From a virus: 64,000 bases of DNA. The position numbers were made by a program, and so were the translations under genes. Below the pieces are notes generated by a model. It made no database searches. It worked only from the letters and a program-made list of their open reading frames with translations, and was not told where the DNA came from. Within the stretch, counting starts at the first letter, position 1. Every line of letters begins with the position of its first letter. Positions 23,199 through 47,346 of the stretch are shown here, one piece after another. The stretch spans positions 1 through 64,000 of the IMG/VR virus record IMGVR_UViG_3300044837_000085. One strand, 5' to 3'.

Positions 23199-23873
23199 TC
23201 AGCCTCTCTTTTGAACACCTCGATAAATTTTATCCCTCGTCGCATGAACTACTTTAGACCCACCTCTATCTGGAGGTGGAGCGTCTGTTACTTTTGCTTT
23301 TTCGGTTCGGATATTTCGAATGGGTCGAATTTCTTCGCCCGTCTTCGCGTCCGTTTTTGTTTTCGAGTCGGGCCACCACATATCCGCAAGCGCATCGAGT
23401 CCGTTTCTGAATTTCCACCCCGCTTGGCGAACGTATGGCGTCCACTCGCCATCGAATCTTGGATCATACAATTCGCGAGCCGCAGATTCGATCGACATTC
23501 CCAAAACCGTCACGCGATGAACAATTGCAAAATCGCGCGGATACAAACGTCTCTTGGCTTCGCTCACGGTTTCCGCAGCGAGTAGAAATGTCAGGGCTGG
23601 TGTCGGAGATAATCCTGACGATCCCCTAGCTCTATCAAAGTCCATTGATCCACCGGACGAAGCATAAGTCATATCGTGCGCGCAGCGATATCGATCGCCG
23701 GCCGCGTATTGCAGTTGAGATATCTGCCGACGATTAAACATCGATGTTAAACTATCCGAAACTCGATCGACGATTTCAGTAGATCCATCGAGTCGAGGAT
23801 GACTTACTTCATCACGCTCAGTCCTTGGTCTCGCAGTAGGCTTGGTCTCGCGCTTACGTTTAGTATTTGCCAA
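23199..23873 (-). CDS. phage transcriptional regulator-like protein (DUF6456-like)
   Basis: ISQLQYAAGDRYR...GMSIESAAR...FRNGLDALAD; probable TTG start after aggga. Confidence 0.6.
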   Translation of the reverse strand: MANTKRKRETKPTARPRTERDEVSHPRLDGSTEIVDRVSDSLTSMFNRRQISQLQYAAGDRYRCAHDMTYASSGGSMDFDRARGSSGLSPTPALTFLLAAETVSEAKRRLYPRDFAIVHRVTVLGMSIESAARELYDPRFDGEWTPYVRQAGWKFRNGLDALADMWWPDSKTKTDAKTGEEIRPIRNIRTEKAKVTDAPPPDRGGSKVVHATRDKIYRGVQKRG

Positions 23874-23914
23874 AAGCGTATTCCCTGATTTCAAACTTCT
23901 TTGGTCGAATACGC

Positions 23915-24181
23915 TGACCGAACCTGCCGTGCCATGCCTCACCTAAACGCGCCGATACCCGGCCTAAGCTTAACTCTCCCCACCGCACCTGCCACAACCA
24001 CACCCATCCTGACCGCACCTGCCGTTACCTACCTCAACACATCGCACCGCATCGCGCCGTGCCCTACCGAACCCCACCTGCCTGACCAGACCATTCCGAA
24101 CCTTTCCTTGCCAAGACGGACCCCACCTCACCTTGCCAGACCGGGCCGGACCAAATCATCGCCCGCCTTACCTGCCTCACC
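23915..24181 (-). ncRNA. 5-nt periodic GGY-NN array, putative guide-RNA locus
   Basis: 49 units all starting with G, 35 starting GGY, variable NN; five GGCA punctuation units. Confidence 0.75.
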
Positions 24182-24190
24182 TAGAAGGAT

Positions 24191-24214
24191 GCGCGCCGCC
24201 CGTAGGCAGCGCGC
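24191..24214 (-). promoter_or_regulatory. 10-bp GC hairpin with cUACGg tetraloop between RAMP stop codon and array
   Basis: gcgcgctgcc-tacg-ggcggcgcgc. Confidence 0.7.
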
Positions 24215-24221
24215 GTTATCG

Positions 24222-25068
24222 TTATTGGTTTGCCGAAGCGCCGTTCTGCTTGCCCTTCGCCTTGATCGCCGGAAGTTTCTTCATCGCAGCGCTGACTTCA
24301 TCGGACGGAACAACCTTCTCGCGGTTCTTTACTTCCTGCTGGAACCAAGTCAGCAGCTCCTCGGTTTCCGCATCGTAAGTATCTGCGTCTGCGATGGCCT
24401 TGATCTGAGCCGCCCGTCCTTGCGTCTTTTTTTTTTTCACAATGCGGATGAACTCCTCGTCGCGGTCATCGGCTACGCGGAATTTGCCGTAACTCATTCC
24501 CTTTTGCGGACGACCGTCGCCTATGCCAACAATGATGCCGGCGGCGGCAAGGAGGTTGATGACCTGACGCTCCTTGATTAGGCTGGACACGAACGAAACC
24601 TCGATCGTGCAAGCCCACTCAGGGAAGATCGCACGAGTCCGGACGTCCGGCGTCCGCGCCATATCACTGGAGCGGACCATCGCCATGTGAAGCTTTGGAA
24701 CGCCGAACACATTGATCTGCGTCCACGCTTGTCAGGCGAAGCATCTGACTTTTCGACGCGTCAGGAATATCGAGCGCGGCGTTGGCAATCGCCTTTGAGA
24801 AGGTTTCGGACGGTAGATGAACGCGCGAAGGCGTACTGTCATCCCGATTCAGGTAGATCGTATCACGGAATTCAGAGATCGGGTCGTGCTTCAGGTTCGA
24901 TGCTTTTTCAGCCCGGTTGACCGGACCTTTCGGCATCAACAATTCCCGCCGCGCCTTTGCACTGAAGCGGTGCATCAGCAGCGGCGTCGTTCCAACGATA
25001 TTGCAACGCAGACGACCCATTGAGATTTCCTGTATCTCGATTGCCGCTGTCTCTTTCTGTTTAGCCAT
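24222..25068 (-). CDS. stand-alone RAMP / Cas7-like RNA-binding protein (about 282 aa), frameshifted near 24722
   Basis: IVGTTPLLMH first strand, HLPSETFSKAI, C-terminal G-rich loop AGIIVGIGDGRPQKGMSYGKFRV; two overlapping ORF halves. Confidence 0.7.
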
Positions 25069-25394
25069 TGTCATTGTCTCCATCAGCGCTCGGCGCTAGC
25101 AGGCCCCGAGCACAAGGGTTCGTTTTCACGAAACCGAGCGCCGATGAAGCGATCGATTGTCGTGCTCTGACCGCGCTGCTAGACGCGGGTTCAAATTGTT
25201 CAAAACTCATATTCACTCTCACAAAAGTTTCTGCGGCAACTTCGTCTTCATCCACTTCACCGCACAATCGATGCTGCAGAAGTCCACACCGAACGCAAAG
25301 GGTGCCTGCGGTATTTCAATCGATAAGCATATAGGCCCGTAGAGATCGCCTACCGGCTTCTCGCATTGATCGCAGCGAAATTTGGTCTCGCGGC

Positions 25395-25589
25395 TCATAC
25401 GGCTCGCTTCGCGATCTGATACCCAATAACGAACGCCGCAACCTTGACCCGGCTCCGTCCCGCTTCTTCATGTGCGAGCCGGATCAGCTTCTGAGTGACA
25501 CCGAGTTTCTTGGCGAGGTATTTTATCTCATGCTTCTCGCTGGAGAGAAGCTTGCGGTCCATTTTGTGTGTTCGCTTCTTCATTGTCAT
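25395..25589 (-). CDS. DUF3606-like small protein
   Basis: DR.....EKHEIKYLAKKLGVT...IR.A....GRSR.KV. Confidence 0.65.
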   Translation of the reverse strand: MTMKKRTHKMDRKLLSSEKHEIKYLAKKLGVTQKLIRLAHEEAGRSRVKVAAFVIGYQIAKRAV

Positions 25590-26365
25590 GATCCTTCCGT
25601 TTTAATTATCCAATAGTCCGATCCGTACTTCGATGATCCGAGATAGGCTTGCGGTATGAAGCAGTCACCCTTGCTCCCCCACGTCGCGCTCCACGAATTT
25701 CGTGCCGTGAAGTGATTGGCATGCTGGTTGTAGCCGCAAATATAAACGCAATGTCCGCCCAACATCGCTTCTCCGGTCTTCGGCATCGGCACGATTCCGG
25801 TAGATGCAACAGCATCGCTCTCGAAACTCTCGAATACCGCGAACCCGACGATCACCGGATATCCAGCAGCAAGCGCAGACTTGATGGCGTAGGTTGATAT
25901 CGCTACGCGCTCGTAGCTGATCGCGCGAAACTTCACCGCATCCGCATAAGCGCTCGCTGGCGGCTTGGTTTTGAATTTACCAATCGAGTACGGCCACAGC
26001 TTCTCATGTGCGACGCCAATTTTAGCGGCGCATTTGATCCCATCACGGATCGATGCGCCCGCATCTGATTGAACCGTGCCCTCCATGTTGCGTTCGTCGT
26101 AGTAAAGCTGGAGGCGCGACATGGGAAAATCTTTTTGGCCGGCGTTGATCAGCGCGTGACGAAGCGCGCCGGTTATGCCGTGGCTTGTGCAAGCGCCCAG
26201 GGCACCTTGGTCCATCACTGGCGGGCAATGCGCGCGTAAATCCACAACTGCCGGAATTCTCGCCACAGTCGGCACGTAGAGATGATCGCGCGGATCGCGT
26301 AAATCTCTGATGCAGCCGTACCAGGCGTTGCGATGTTCCGATTTGGTGGTCTTTGATGAAGTCAT
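25586..26365 (-). CDS. C1 (papain-like) cysteine peptidase
   Basis: VDLR, DQGALGACT, GGHCV, RNSW catalytic motifs. Confidence 0.9.
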   Translation of the reverse strand: MTSSKTTKSEHRNAWYGCIRDLRDPRDHLYVPTVARIPAVVDLRAHCPPVMDQGALGACTSHGITGALRHALINAGQKDFPMSRLQLYYDERNMEGTVQSDAGASIRDGIKCAAKIGVAHEKLWPYSIGKFKTKPPASAYADAVKFRAISYERVAISTYAIKSALAAGYPVIVGFAVFESFESDAVASTGIVPMPKTGEAMLGGHCVYICGYNQHANHFTARNSWSATWGSKGDCFIPQAYLGSSKYGSDYWIIKTEGS

Positions 26366-26842
26366 GACGATGTTTCCTCTGGTGAGATCAAAGCCCTCGC
26401 ATTTATTGTTGCTGTCGTATCGGAATATCCAGCAGCTTCCCACGTCCGGTAAAAGGCGCACATCTTGCCGCGTTCGAATTCATTCCTGACGCCACCGTGA
26501 AGGCATTCTGTTAATTCACGATCGATAAATGTCTTGAGGTCTTGGCGATATCGCTCGCGTCGATATCCGCGCTTGAACTCGCCGATGAAATCTCGGAACG
26601 CGCTCACGCTGCACTCTCCGGTTTGCATCCTTTTGCGTCGTAATTTTCCAACGCGAGTTTTACGAGTATTCGATCTCCGGACCTCGCCGCAGCAATGACG
26701 GACAACATCCGGTAGTAGTGATCGGCGTAGACGGTTTGAAGCGCGGGCTCGCCTACTCTCATTGACCACATCGGAGCTGGTGCCATCTCTACCGCTTTCG
26801 GTAGTTCAAATCGTTTATAGTTCTTTGGAATTTTGAAGGGCT

Positions 26843-46687: not shown

Positions 46688-47346
46688 TTCTTAGAGGCGA
46701 ACCGGCGAAGCTGGCGAGCCTTTACGGCTCCGGCTCCGGCTCCGGCTACGGCTCCGGCGACGGCGACGGCTCCGGCTCCGGCTCCGGCTCCGGCTACGGC
46801 TACGGCTACGGCTCCGGCTCCGGCTCCGGCTACGGCTACGGCTACGGCTACGGCTCCGGCGACGGCGACGGCTACGGCTCCGGCTCCGGCGACGGCTCCG
46901 GCTCCGGCTCCGGCTACGGCTACGGCTCCGGCTCCGGCTCCGGCTACGGCTCCGGCTACGGCTACGGCTCCGGCTCCGGCTACGGCTCCGGCTCCAAAGA
47001 CTATTGGCAAGCCACTATTCTTAACTTCGCGGCTAAATGGCCAGAAGCCCAGCGCGCAAGGCTAACCGACGCGAAGTTAAGCGGAGCAACGATCGCCTTT
47101 TGGCGATCGAGCGACAAGGGTCTCCCGTCAAACGGCGGCGGGAAGATCGAGCCCGCTGCGCCCGGCGTGATCCATACCGCACCAGGGCCACTGCAAACCT
47201 GCCACAGCGGTACGCTGCACGCGACGCTGATCCCACCGAAATGGGAGGGGGCGCGCTGGTGGATCGTCGCGCTTCATGGCGAAGTCGTCGGTGATGAAGA
47301 AAAGTATGGCTGCCTGAAGCGTGAAATCTTGGGCGAGGCGACATGA
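46675..47346 (+). CDS. Gly-Ser/Tyr/Asp repeat protein
   Basis: (G-[SYD])n tract followed by a globular domain. Confidence 0.7.
   Translation: MEPVILRGEPAKLASLYGSGSGSGYGSGDGDGSGSGSGSGYGYGYGSGSGSGYGYGYGYGSGDGDGYGSGSGDGSGSGSGYGYGSGSGSGYGSGYGYGSGSGYGSGSKDYWQATILNFAAKWPEAQRARLTDAKLSGATIAFWRSSDKGLPSNGGGKIEPAAPGVIHTAPGPLQTCHSGTLHATLIPPKWEGARWWIVALHGEVVGDEEKYGCLKREILGEAT
46726..46995 (+). repeat. coding hexamer tandem repeat GGC(TCC/TAC/GAC)
   Basis: about 45 in-frame units. Confidence 0.95.

What the first reader, a model, noticed from the sequence alone, without database searches (positions are those of the whole stretch)
23915..24181. Internal grammar of the array: GGCA-delimited blocks that look like separate guides
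The minus strand parses as GGTga GGCA | 18 units | GGCA | 11 units | GGCA | 5 units | GGCA | 12 units | GGCA | GGTtc GGTca. All 49 units begin with G, 35 begin GGY and two carry one extra base. The 4-nt GGCA (acctgcc on + at 23922, 23987, 24017, 24076, 24170) resets the register. NN strings: block1 aa gg at tt cc cc ct aa ga gg cc tt aa aa tc at ct ca; block2 gg tc ag ac gc gc gc gt ga ag ac; block3 gc ca tg gt tg; block4 gc gg ga aa ta cg at gc ta ga at ac. Non-repeating NN on a fixed scaffold is not what slippage-derived microsatellites produce. I infer that GGCA marks processing or boundary sites and NN carries target information.
Basis: partly seen in the sequence, partly recalled or inferred. 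Interest (0 to 1): 0.9.

Follow-up and report, generated by a model that had tools for sequence, protein, structure and literature searches.

The report
VIPR guide-RNA array in soil phage
The 5-base-periodic GGY-NN array is the guide-RNA (vrRNA) array of a phage VIPR system, an RNA-guided gene-silencing system first described in 2026 preprints. It is a real and well-read but no longer new kind of element.

Summary

It is a vrRNA array of a VIPR system (Viral Interference Programmable Repeat; bioRxiv 10.64898/2026.04.26.720920). The gene just upstream belongs to the Vipr family: a profile matches the solved SUSP1 Vipr at E 2e-35, and the modelled fold matches Csm3/Cmr4.

A scan of viral contigs with the DNA pattern alone found at least 120 such loci. 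75 of them carry a Vipr gene beside the array, on the same strand in 100 of 102 arrays. GGY is conserved and NN is at maximal entropy. GGCA makes up 44% of all register-shifting 4-base units, and blocks are mostly 9-10 units long. This fits the published "staggered" array type.

Block 4, read by the published 1-nt-skip rule, matches one in-frame site in DUF6456/GafA-like genes of related phages at 21/24. The phage's own copy, next to the array, matches 19/24. None of 800 shuffled guides reached 21.

No targets were found for blocks 1-3, and RNA ends are untested. In this record vipr is split by a 5-base deletion that near-identical soil contigs lack.

The parts
24664..25083 (-). vipr, N-terminal part (RRM beta-1 with the conserved PLLMH histidine, and the helical bundle); this ORF ends early because of the frameshift
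   Evidence: PHROG 4652 N-half. blastp/HMM to Vipr homologs in 75 loci. The profile of these homologs hits PDB 36pp 'SUSP1 Vipr protein' at E 2e-35.
24222..24731 (-). vipr, C-terminal part in the +1 frame (thumb RTR, G-loop GIGDGRP, C-terminal helical extension); stop codon at 24222-24224
   Evidence: PHROG 4652 C-half. Residue alignment to SUSP1 Vipr 136-184 gives R138->R, D177->D, W178->G, R179->R. Three-frame translation of the break.
24722..24723 (.). Site of a 5-nt deletion that splits vipr in this record
   Evidence: Soil-metagenome contigs carry 5 extra letters behind 24722 (X1: 1 contig; X2: 2 contigs, one with a single other mismatch over 85 nt). By my reading of the frames, this joins the two ORFs into one.
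24190..24213 (-). GC-rich 10-bp hairpin between the vipr stop codon and the array
   Evidence: Read from the sequence; it is the only strong stem in the fold of 23905-24225. Its function was not tested.
24173..24181 (-). Lead unit GGTGA plus the first GGCA punctuation
24083..24172 (-). vrRNA block 1, 18 units
   Evidence: No target found.
24079..24082 (-). GGCA punctuation 2
24024..24078 (-). vrRNA block 2, 11 units
   Evidence: No target found.
24020..24023 (-). GGCA punctuation 3
23994..24019 (-). vrRNA block 3, 5 units plus one extra T; too short for a meaningful target search
23990..23993 (-). GGCA punctuation 4
23929..23989 (-). vrRNA block 4, 12 units (one 6-nt unit); candidate guide against DUF6456/GafA-like genes of related phages
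   Evidence: 1-nt-skip match of 21/24 to L129, 20/24 to L002 and L136, 19/24 to L003 and to the phage's own gene, at the homologous in-frame site in every case. 0 of 800 shuffled guides reach 21, and only skip 1 stands above the null.
23925..23928 (-). GGCA punctuation 5
23915..23924 (-). Two trailing units, GGTTC GGTCA
23199..23873 (-). DUF6456 / GafA-like gene downstream of the array. It is not part of the VIPR module in relatives, but it carries the near-cognate site for block 4 at 23668-23702 (19/24).
   Evidence: Homologs L002-L007 lack an array. 22 of 32 family members match PF20057. GafA homologs are annotated as DUF6456 (PMC9638019). Site alignment.

Best explanation
The array is the vrRNA (guide RNA) array of a phage VIPR system.

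Shown here:
- A Vipr-family RAMP gene lies immediately upstream on the same strand.
- The gene-plus-array module recurs in many uncultured phages.
- GGY is the conserved scaffold and NN is hypervariable.
- A 4-nt GGCA unit is the usual register reset and separates blocks of typical guide length.

Taken from the 2026 VIPR preprints: one Vipr protomer binds each 5-nt unit. It sequesters GGY and presents the two N bases. The filament then pairs with double-stranded DNA that reads NN-x-NN-x (the 1-nt skip rule), forms an R-loop triplex and silences transcription of competing mobile elements.

Inferred for this locus:
- The transcript runs on from vipr, or starts at an unrecognised promoter.
- It yields four guides of 18, 11, 5 and 12 units whose ends lie at the GGCA|GGT junctions. 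This is the published 'staggered' architecture, in which adjacent guides overlap by 1 nt (GGCA[G]GT).
- Block 4 is aimed at the conserved AGDRYRxAxxMT codons of the DUF6456/GafA-like regulator of sibling phages. NN falls on codon positions 1-2 and the skipped base on the wobble position. The phage's own allele is spared by five mismatches.

In this record vipr is broken by a 5-nt deletion. The array may therefore be inactive here, or may depend on a Vipr supplied in trans, unless the deletion is an assembly error.
For: Protein:
- The two ORFs match the two halves of PHROG 4652.
- A profile of 40 homologs hits PDB 36pp 'SUSP1 Vipr protein' at E 2.1e-35 over residues 2-192.
- The window's C-half aligns to SUSP1 136-184 and keeps R138, D177 and R179. 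The N-half keeps the H17 histidine.
- An AF2 model of the closest full-length homolog (pLDDT 86) matches Csm3/Cmr4/Cas7 backbone RAMPs at E about 1e-5.

Module:
- A scan with (GGYNN)6GGY found at least 120 viral loci; 75 of them have a Vipr gene.
- 100 of 102 arrays within 600 nt of a Vipr gene lie on the gene's strand, 68 downstream and 32 upstream.

Grammar, from 4742 units:
- G .86, G .85, Y .89; entropy at N4 and N5 is 1.94 and 1.99 bits.
- Of 284 4-nt units, 124 are GGCA (155 are NGCA). The next unit is GGC or GGT.
- Block-length mode is 9-10 units.

NN variability: L056 and L116 (Vipr C-terminus 94% identical) share the scaffold and tail but have unrelated NN strings.

Target: block 4 reaches 21/24 with skip 1 only; 0 of 800 shuffles reach this; the match is in frame with the skipped base on wobble positions.

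RNA: the array is not more structured than shuffles (z +1.36), as expected for a protein-bound single strand.

Literature.
Against: - vipr is split in this record.
- 14 of 49 units lack GGY.
- Block 1 (18 units) is longer and block 3 (5 units) shorter than the published range of 9-16.
- No conserved 3' tail or pseudoknot follows the blocks, unlike the experimentally studied type II systems.
- The preprint states experimental confirmation only for the ribozyme-interspersed and single-vrRNA architectures, not for staggered arrays.
- The G-loop tryptophan that stacks on G2 in SUSP1 Vipr is glycine here.
- No targets were found for blocks 1-3.
- The best block-4 target is 21/24, not perfect, and its homologous hits count as one event.
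Confidence: 0.9

Rival explanations
1. The locus is a decaying or Vipr-less remnant. The array is a true vrRNA array by descent, but this phage no longer makes a working Vipr. The RNAs are then either inert or are loaded onto the Vipr of a co-infecting relative, like the published 'solo vrRNAs' of VIPR-null phages.
For: A 5-nt deletion splits vipr. 14 of 49 units are degenerate and two have extra bases. VIPR-null phages with solo vrRNAs are described in 10.64898/2026.10.15.759431.
Against: Both halves of vipr are otherwise open and keep the key residues. Near-identical contigs have the intact form, so the break is very recent or an assembly error. Internal degeneracy of units is called frequent in working vrRNAs.
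Confidence: 0.2
2. The GGCA units are not boundaries. They are 1-nt deletions in one long repeat tract, and the real guide ends lie elsewhere or the tract acts as one RNA.
For: No RNA ends have been mapped. Block sizes of 18 and 5 are atypical. Block 1 contains two in-register GGCAA units that resemble the punctuation.
Against: GGCA accounts for 44% of all 4-nt units across 100 arrays, against roughly 15% expected from unit composition. It is followed by GGY, and the spacing peaks at 9-10 units. Related clades have their own fixed punctuation (GGCGGTC in L030 and L061; a 12-nt mark in L070 and L102; 40-nt tails in L056 and L116). The block-4 target match begins at the first unit after one GGCA, ends at the last unit before the next, and does not extend beyond either. 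The preprint describes staggered arrays with 1-nt overlap.
Confidence: 0.1
3. The array is a structural nucleic-acid element unrelated to guiding, for example a run of two-tetrad G-quadruplexes or a sponge for an RNA-binding protein.
For: GG every 5 nt could in principle form G2 quadruplexes (inference only).
Against: It does not explain the pyrimidine at position 3, the maximal entropy of NN, the strict linkage and co-orientation with a RAMP gene, or the above-chance codon-phased match of block 4.
Confidence: 0.02
4. The array is a slippage-derived microsatellite or a cryptic coding repeat.
For: None beyond the periodicity.
Against: The units are not copies of each other; TRF finds only a 20-nt stretch of period 10 inside the array. 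A period of 5 is not a multiple of 3, and no ORF spans the array.
Confidence: 0.01

Closest known systems
VIPR systems (Vipr protein plus vrRNA), bioRxiv 10.64898/2026.04.26.720920, 10.64898/2026.04.26.720927 and 10.64898/2026.10.15.759431; the 'staggered array' variant (fig. S18)
   Same: - A RAMP-like Vipr gene flanked by an intergenic array of GGY-NN pentamers on the same strand.
- Conserved GGY and hypervariable NN.
- Phage-borne.
- Adjacent guides offset by one base.
- A candidate target in a coding sequence of a competing phage, with the skipped base on the wobble position and a lower self-match.
   Different: - The protein is distant from the studied SUSP1 type II protein: a single-sequence search gives only E 0.03, while the profile gives 2e-35.
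- No 3' tail or pseudoknot.
- GGCA|GGY punctuation, which is not named in the preprint text.
- No obvious vap gene.
- vipr is frameshifted in this record.
- The host is probably a soil alphaproteobacterium.
- I could not assign one of the seven published types.
Class 1 CRISPR-Cas backbone (Cas7/Csm3/Cmr4 filaments on crRNA)
   Same: RAMP fold with G-loop and thumb. One protomer binds per fixed number of guide nucleotides, with periodic base flipping.
   Different: - No CRISPR repeats or spacers, no cas1/cas2, no other cas genes.
- The period is 5 with three bases sequestered, not 6 with one flipped.
- The guide is noncontiguous.
TRAP (trp RNA-binding attenuation protein) binding to (G/U)AG repeats with 2-3 nt spacers
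   Same: A 5-nt-periodic triplet motif read by an oligomeric protein. This was my first lead, from memory.
   Different: An unrelated fold, a different motif (GAG, not GGY) and a different function. I dropped the lead once the Vipr match was found.

Membership tests
VIPR system | Vipr protein: a minimal RAMP (RRM core, G-loop, thumb) homologous to the described Viprs | tested here: met
   The profile of 40 homologs, built from the family to which the window's two ORFs belong, hits PDB 36pp SUSP1 Vipr at E 2.1e-35 over residues 2-192. The fold search returns Csm3/Cmr4 RAMPs at E about 1e-5. Caveat: the window copy is split by a 5-nt deletion.
VIPR system | Residues that read GGY in SUSP1 Vipr (H17, R138, D177, W178, R179) | tested here: inconclusive
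   H, R, D and R are kept; W178 is G in the window copy (GIGDGRP). The family consensus at this motif is GDxRP, so this position varies across the family.
VIPR system | vrRNA of tandem YNNGG / GGYNN units (at least 4; 9-16 typical) next to vipr, with conserved GGY and variable NN | tested here: met
   49 units, 35 of them GGY. Across the family: G .86, G .85, Y .89, NN entropy 1.94 and 1.99 bits. NN strings are unrelated between close relatives.
VIPR system | vrRNAs are expressed, processed and bound by Vipr | not testable with these tools
   No RNA run holds the stretch. This needs sRNA-seq or a pull-down.
VIPR system | Targets follow the 1-nt skip rule (at least 80% NN match, mostly in coding sequence, skipped base on wobble, no self-target at or above 80%) | tested here: inconclusive
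   Block 4: 21/24 (87.5%) on L129 and 20/24 on L002 and L136, in frame, with skip 1 only, and 0 of 800 shuffles reaching it. The self site is 19/24 (79%). Blocks 1-3: nothing above chance.
VIPR system | Accessory vap gene beside vipr | tested here: inconclusive
   No neighbour could be assigned. The downstream DUF6456 gene occurs without VIPR in relatives. The upstream small ORFs (DUF3606, a 59-aa Cys-rich ORF) were not characterised. The closest homolog, L049, has a 151-aa ORF between vipr and its arrays.
VIPR 'staggered array' architecture | Adjacent vrRNAs overlap by 1 nt, so the end of one marks the start of the next, with no tail or ribozyme between them | tested here: met
   Five GGCA|GGT junctions each shorten the period to 4. 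The same punctuation dominates in the family. Definition from the fig. S18 legend. Processing itself was not tested.
CRISPR-Cas | Repeat-spacer array and a cas operon | tested here: not met
   No direct repeats of CRISPR type. Neighbouring genes are not cas genes.

The most novel reading that the evidence does not exclude
In tail-less 'staggered' VIPR arrays, the sequence GGCA|GGY is itself the signal that ends one Vipr filament and starts the next, and so defines the guide ends. This phage uses one such guide (block 4) to silence the GafA-like late-gene activator of sibling phages during co-infection. Its own allele, sitting directly downstream of the array, escapes through five mismatches. 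That would be kin-directed superinfection exclusion by a noncontiguous RNA guide in soil alphaproteobacterial phages.
Probability: 0.35. Interest if true: 0.55.

Novelty: new member of a known kind. Interest (0 to 1): 0.4.

Why it matters
That logic was published only in 2026, which makes this a good validation of the scan.

The locus itself adds some detail to a very young field:
- An environmental (soil, probably Bradyrhizobium/Afipia-type host) member of the tail-less staggered array type, which the preprint describes but does not verify experimentally.
- A quantitative consensus for the punctuation (GGCA|GGY, blocks of 9-10 units) from 100 arrays.
- A concrete, testable guide-target pair (block 4 against DUF6456/GafA-like regulators), with graded self and non-self matches of 19, 20 and 21 out of 24.
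- A naturally split vipr next to an intact array.

It does not reveal a new kind of system.

Tried and rejected
**Searches that gave nothing for the array itself**
- Rfam has no family on the array.
- blastn of the region against GenBank phages found no match.
- Relatives found through the downstream gene (L002-L007) have no array, so the array is not tied to that gene.
- A relative search with the Vipr C-half in viral contigs found none by pattern.

**Leads I dropped once the Vipr match appeared**
TRAP-like ring binder, CsrA sponge, Chi or primase site cluster, telomere-like repeat, terminase pac site.

**Target searches with no result**
- Self-targets: none above shuffles for blocks 1-3.
- Exact 1-nt-skip patterns of block 2, block 4, and block 1 units 1-10 and 9-18 gave 0 hits in IMG/VR.
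- Block 2 and block 1 units 9-18 gave 0 hits in genome contigs.
- Block 1 units 1-10 gave 12 exact hits, all in one conserved Bacteroidota motif, KG[IM]LPPL[KN]EG. The match does not continue into units 11-18 (22-25 of 36). About one chance event is expected at this database size, so I judged it chance.
- Block 2 with up to 3 mismatches in 401 genomes of the Afipia family gave 31 matches in 30 of the 401 genomes, fewer than the reversed-pattern control, so there is no enrichment.
- 144 guides parsed from the other loci, scanned against the pooled 1.2 Mb, showed no skip rule above shuffled guides. The pool is not the relevant target space, so this test has no power.

**Other attempts**
- Expression: no RNA holder is listed for the stretch.
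- The laid contigs of four soil runs cover vipr in part. On the array they give only two short pieces from other arrays.
- No sigma-70-like promoter was found.
- The hairpin over the start of the downstream gene is not above shuffles.

Full report
**1.

Read on the minus strand, window 24181-23915 is a run of 49 five-base units. All 49 begin with G, 39 begin with GG and 35 with GGY. Two units carry an extra base. Five 4-base GGCA units interrupt the run and each shifts the register by one.

The periodicity is far beyond chance:
- GG-GG autocorrelation peaks at every multiple of 5.
- (GGYNN)x7 with up to 2 mismatches gives 10 hits against 0.03 expected.
- No other place in the 104.6-kb virus record comes near it.

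The array is intergenic. It follows the stop codon of a minus-strand gene and a GC-rich hairpin, and it precedes another minus-strand gene. No ORF spans it. Rfam has nothing there, and the RNA is not more structured than shuffles (z +1.36).

**2. What it belongs to**

The two overlapping ORFs upstream (24664-25083 and 24222-24710) match the N- and C-halves of one PHROG of unknown function.

A scan of viral contigs with nothing but the DNA pattern (GGYNN)6GGY returned at least 120 loci, many with arrays of 200-970 nt. An HMM iterated from the closest full-length homolog finds the same protein family in 75 of them. Of 102 arrays within 600 nt of such a gene, 100 lie on its strand, 68 downstream and 32 upstream. 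So gene plus array is a conserved module.

A profile of 40 of these proteins hits one solved structure, 'SUSP1 Vipr protein' (PDB 36pp), at E 2.1e-35 over nearly its whole length. An AlphaFold model of the closest homolog (pLDDT 86) matches the Csm3/Cmr4/Cas7 backbone subunits of class 1 CRISPR effectors.

**3. What is already published**

The match leads to three 2026 preprints on VIPR (Viral Interference Programmable Repeat) systems.

In brief:
- Vipr is a minimal RAMP encoded mostly by phages.
- Its vrRNAs are 9-16 YNNGG repeats with conserved GGY and hypervariable NN.
- The NN bases alone pair with double-stranded DNA that reads NN-x-NN-x (the '1-nt skip rule'), without a PAM.
- Binding silences transcription of competing phages and satellites.

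Cryo-EM shows one protomer per repeat. G1 and G2 are held by H17, D177, R138 and W178, and Y3 sits in a pocket of the next protomer.

Seven types are described, including 'staggered arrays' whose vrRNAs overlap by 1 nt, so that the end of one marks the start of the next. Unlike the ribozyme-interspersed and single-vrRNA types, this architecture is not stated to have been confirmed by RNA sequencing.

The window's protein keeps H17, R138, D177 and R179. W178 is glycine, at a position that varies in the family (GDxRP).

**4. The GGCA grammar**

I parsed 100 Vipr-linked arrays (4742 five-base units). Position frequencies are G .86, G .85 and Y .89. Positions 4 and 5 have near-maximal entropy, 1.94 and 1.99 bits.

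Of the 284 four-base units that reset the register, 124 are GGCA and 155 are NGCA. The next unit starts with GGC or GGT. The number of units between resets peaks at 9-10, with most between 7 and 12.

The window's closest relatives show the same layout. L049 uses GGCA|GGC. L030 and L061 use GGCGGTC every 8-13 units. Other clades use a 12-nt mark (L070, L102) or a conserved tail of about 40 nt (L056, L116).

GGCA followed by GGY is exactly a 1-nt overlap of two registers, GGCA[G]GY, so I equate it with the published staggered type. That GGCA is where the RNA is cut remains an inference.

**5. NN is variable, not conserved**

L056 and L116 have Vipr C-termini 94% identical and share the scaffold and tail, but their NN strings are unrelated. 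L070 and L102 are 99.4% identical over 2.3 kb, and their arrays differ in a single unit, at position 1 and at both N positions.

**6. Targets**

Blocks 1-3 have no match above shuffled controls in the phage's own genome or in the pooled loci. Their exact patterns are absent from IMG/VR and, apart from one likely chance motif, from the genome collection.

Block 4 (NN string GC GG GA AA TA CG AT GC TA GA AT AC) behaves differently. With a gap of 1, its best hits all fall on the same in-frame site of one gene family:
- 21/24 in a metagenomic homolog (L129);
- 20/24 in L002 and L136;
- 19/24 in L003;
- 19/24 in the phage's own copy at 23668-23702, the gene directly downstream of the array.

The NN bases fall on codon positions 1-2 and the skipped base on the wobble position. 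The site is the family's most conserved motif, AGDRYRxAxxMT.

None of 800 shuffled guides reaches 21 in the same 1.22-Mb set; the maximum is 20, reached 5 times. Gaps of 0, 2 and 3 give only chance scores. The match spans the block from the first unit after one GGCA to the last unit before the next, and it does not extend past either.

The family carries DUF6456 (22 of 32 members). This is the annotation of GafA, the activator of gene-transfer-agent genes in alphaproteobacteria (PMC9638019).

Homologs occur in Bradyrhizobium and Afipia, which agrees with earlier notes of this scan that the host is an alphaproteobacterium.

A lower score on self than on relatives parallels what the third preprint reports for other vrRNAs.

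Caveats: the hits are homologous and count as one event, no perfect target was found, and part of the search set was collected after the first hit. The shuffled guides did face the same set.

**7. State of the system in this record**

The two vipr ORFs are in different frames. Contigs from two runs of one soil-metagenome study carry five extra bases behind 24722; one of them differs from the window by a single other base. By my reading of the frames, these five bases join the ORFs into one Vipr.

The record therefore has a 5-nt deletion, which may be real or an assembly error. If it is real, the array is either inert or depends on the Vipr of a co-infecting relative, as described for VIPR-null phages with solo vrRNAs.

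**8. Verdict**

The element is a new environmental member of a kind of system published in 2026. It is not a new kind.

Points that go slightly beyond the preprint text are the GGCA|GGY consensus and spacing, the candidate block-4/GafA-like target pair, and the split vipr.

Untested here: RNA ends, Vipr binding, repression, and targets of blocks 1-3.

Noticed in passing
window 24083-24172 (block 1, units 1-10); loci L151-L162: The 1-nt-skip pattern of the first ten units of block 1 has 12 exact, in-frame matches in genome contigs. All lie in one conserved Bacteroidota protein motif, KG[IM]LPPL[KN]EG. The match stops after unit 10 (22-25 of 36). Probably one chance event multiplied by conservation, but not explained.
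   Followed up: partly
L049 3280-7072: In the closest full-length relative, the VIPR module (vipr, a 151-aa ORF, two arrays) sits between what look by size and order like the large terminase and the head-tail joining and portal genes (not run against any family library). In the window it sits in the replication and nucleotide-metabolism region. The module seems to move between genome contexts.
   Followed up: no
L030 8150-8560, L061 6000-6410, L070 28-337, L056 2111-2454, L116 184-492: The punctuation between guides differs by Vipr clade: GGCGGTC (L030, L061), a 12-nt GGTACATGGC-type mark (L070, L102), or a conserved tail of about 40 nt beginning GGCAAACACAC (L056, L116).
   Followed up: partly
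window 24553 region; L049 about 4776: An 8-unit guide from locus L092 matches vipr itself in this window and in L049 at 14/16. This is at chance level for so short a guide, but the preprints report vrRNAs that target rival vipr genes.
   Followed up: no
genomes G007, G243, G114, G151, G183, G067 (Afipia-family sample): Block 2 matches one conserved chromosomal site at 20/22 in six genomes. About half a chance event is expected at this search size, so it is not significant.
   Followed up: no
window 23875-23915: A 9-bp inverted repeat (AGCGTATTC ... GAATACGCT) followed by TTTT spans the end of the array and the ribosome-binding site and TTG start of the DUF6456 gene. Its fold energy is not above shuffles (z -0.31).
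   Followed up: yes
window 46723-46995: A long tandem repeat with period 6 (CGGCTC, 45 copies) and a 42-nt super-period, found by TRF. Probably a coding Gly/Ser/Tyr-rich repeat.
   Followed up: no
window 25586-26461 and 25395-25589: A papain-family (Peptidase_C1) gene and a DUF3606 gene lie just upstream of vipr on the same strand. Whether either is a VIPR accessory (vap) gene is unknown.
   Followed up: no
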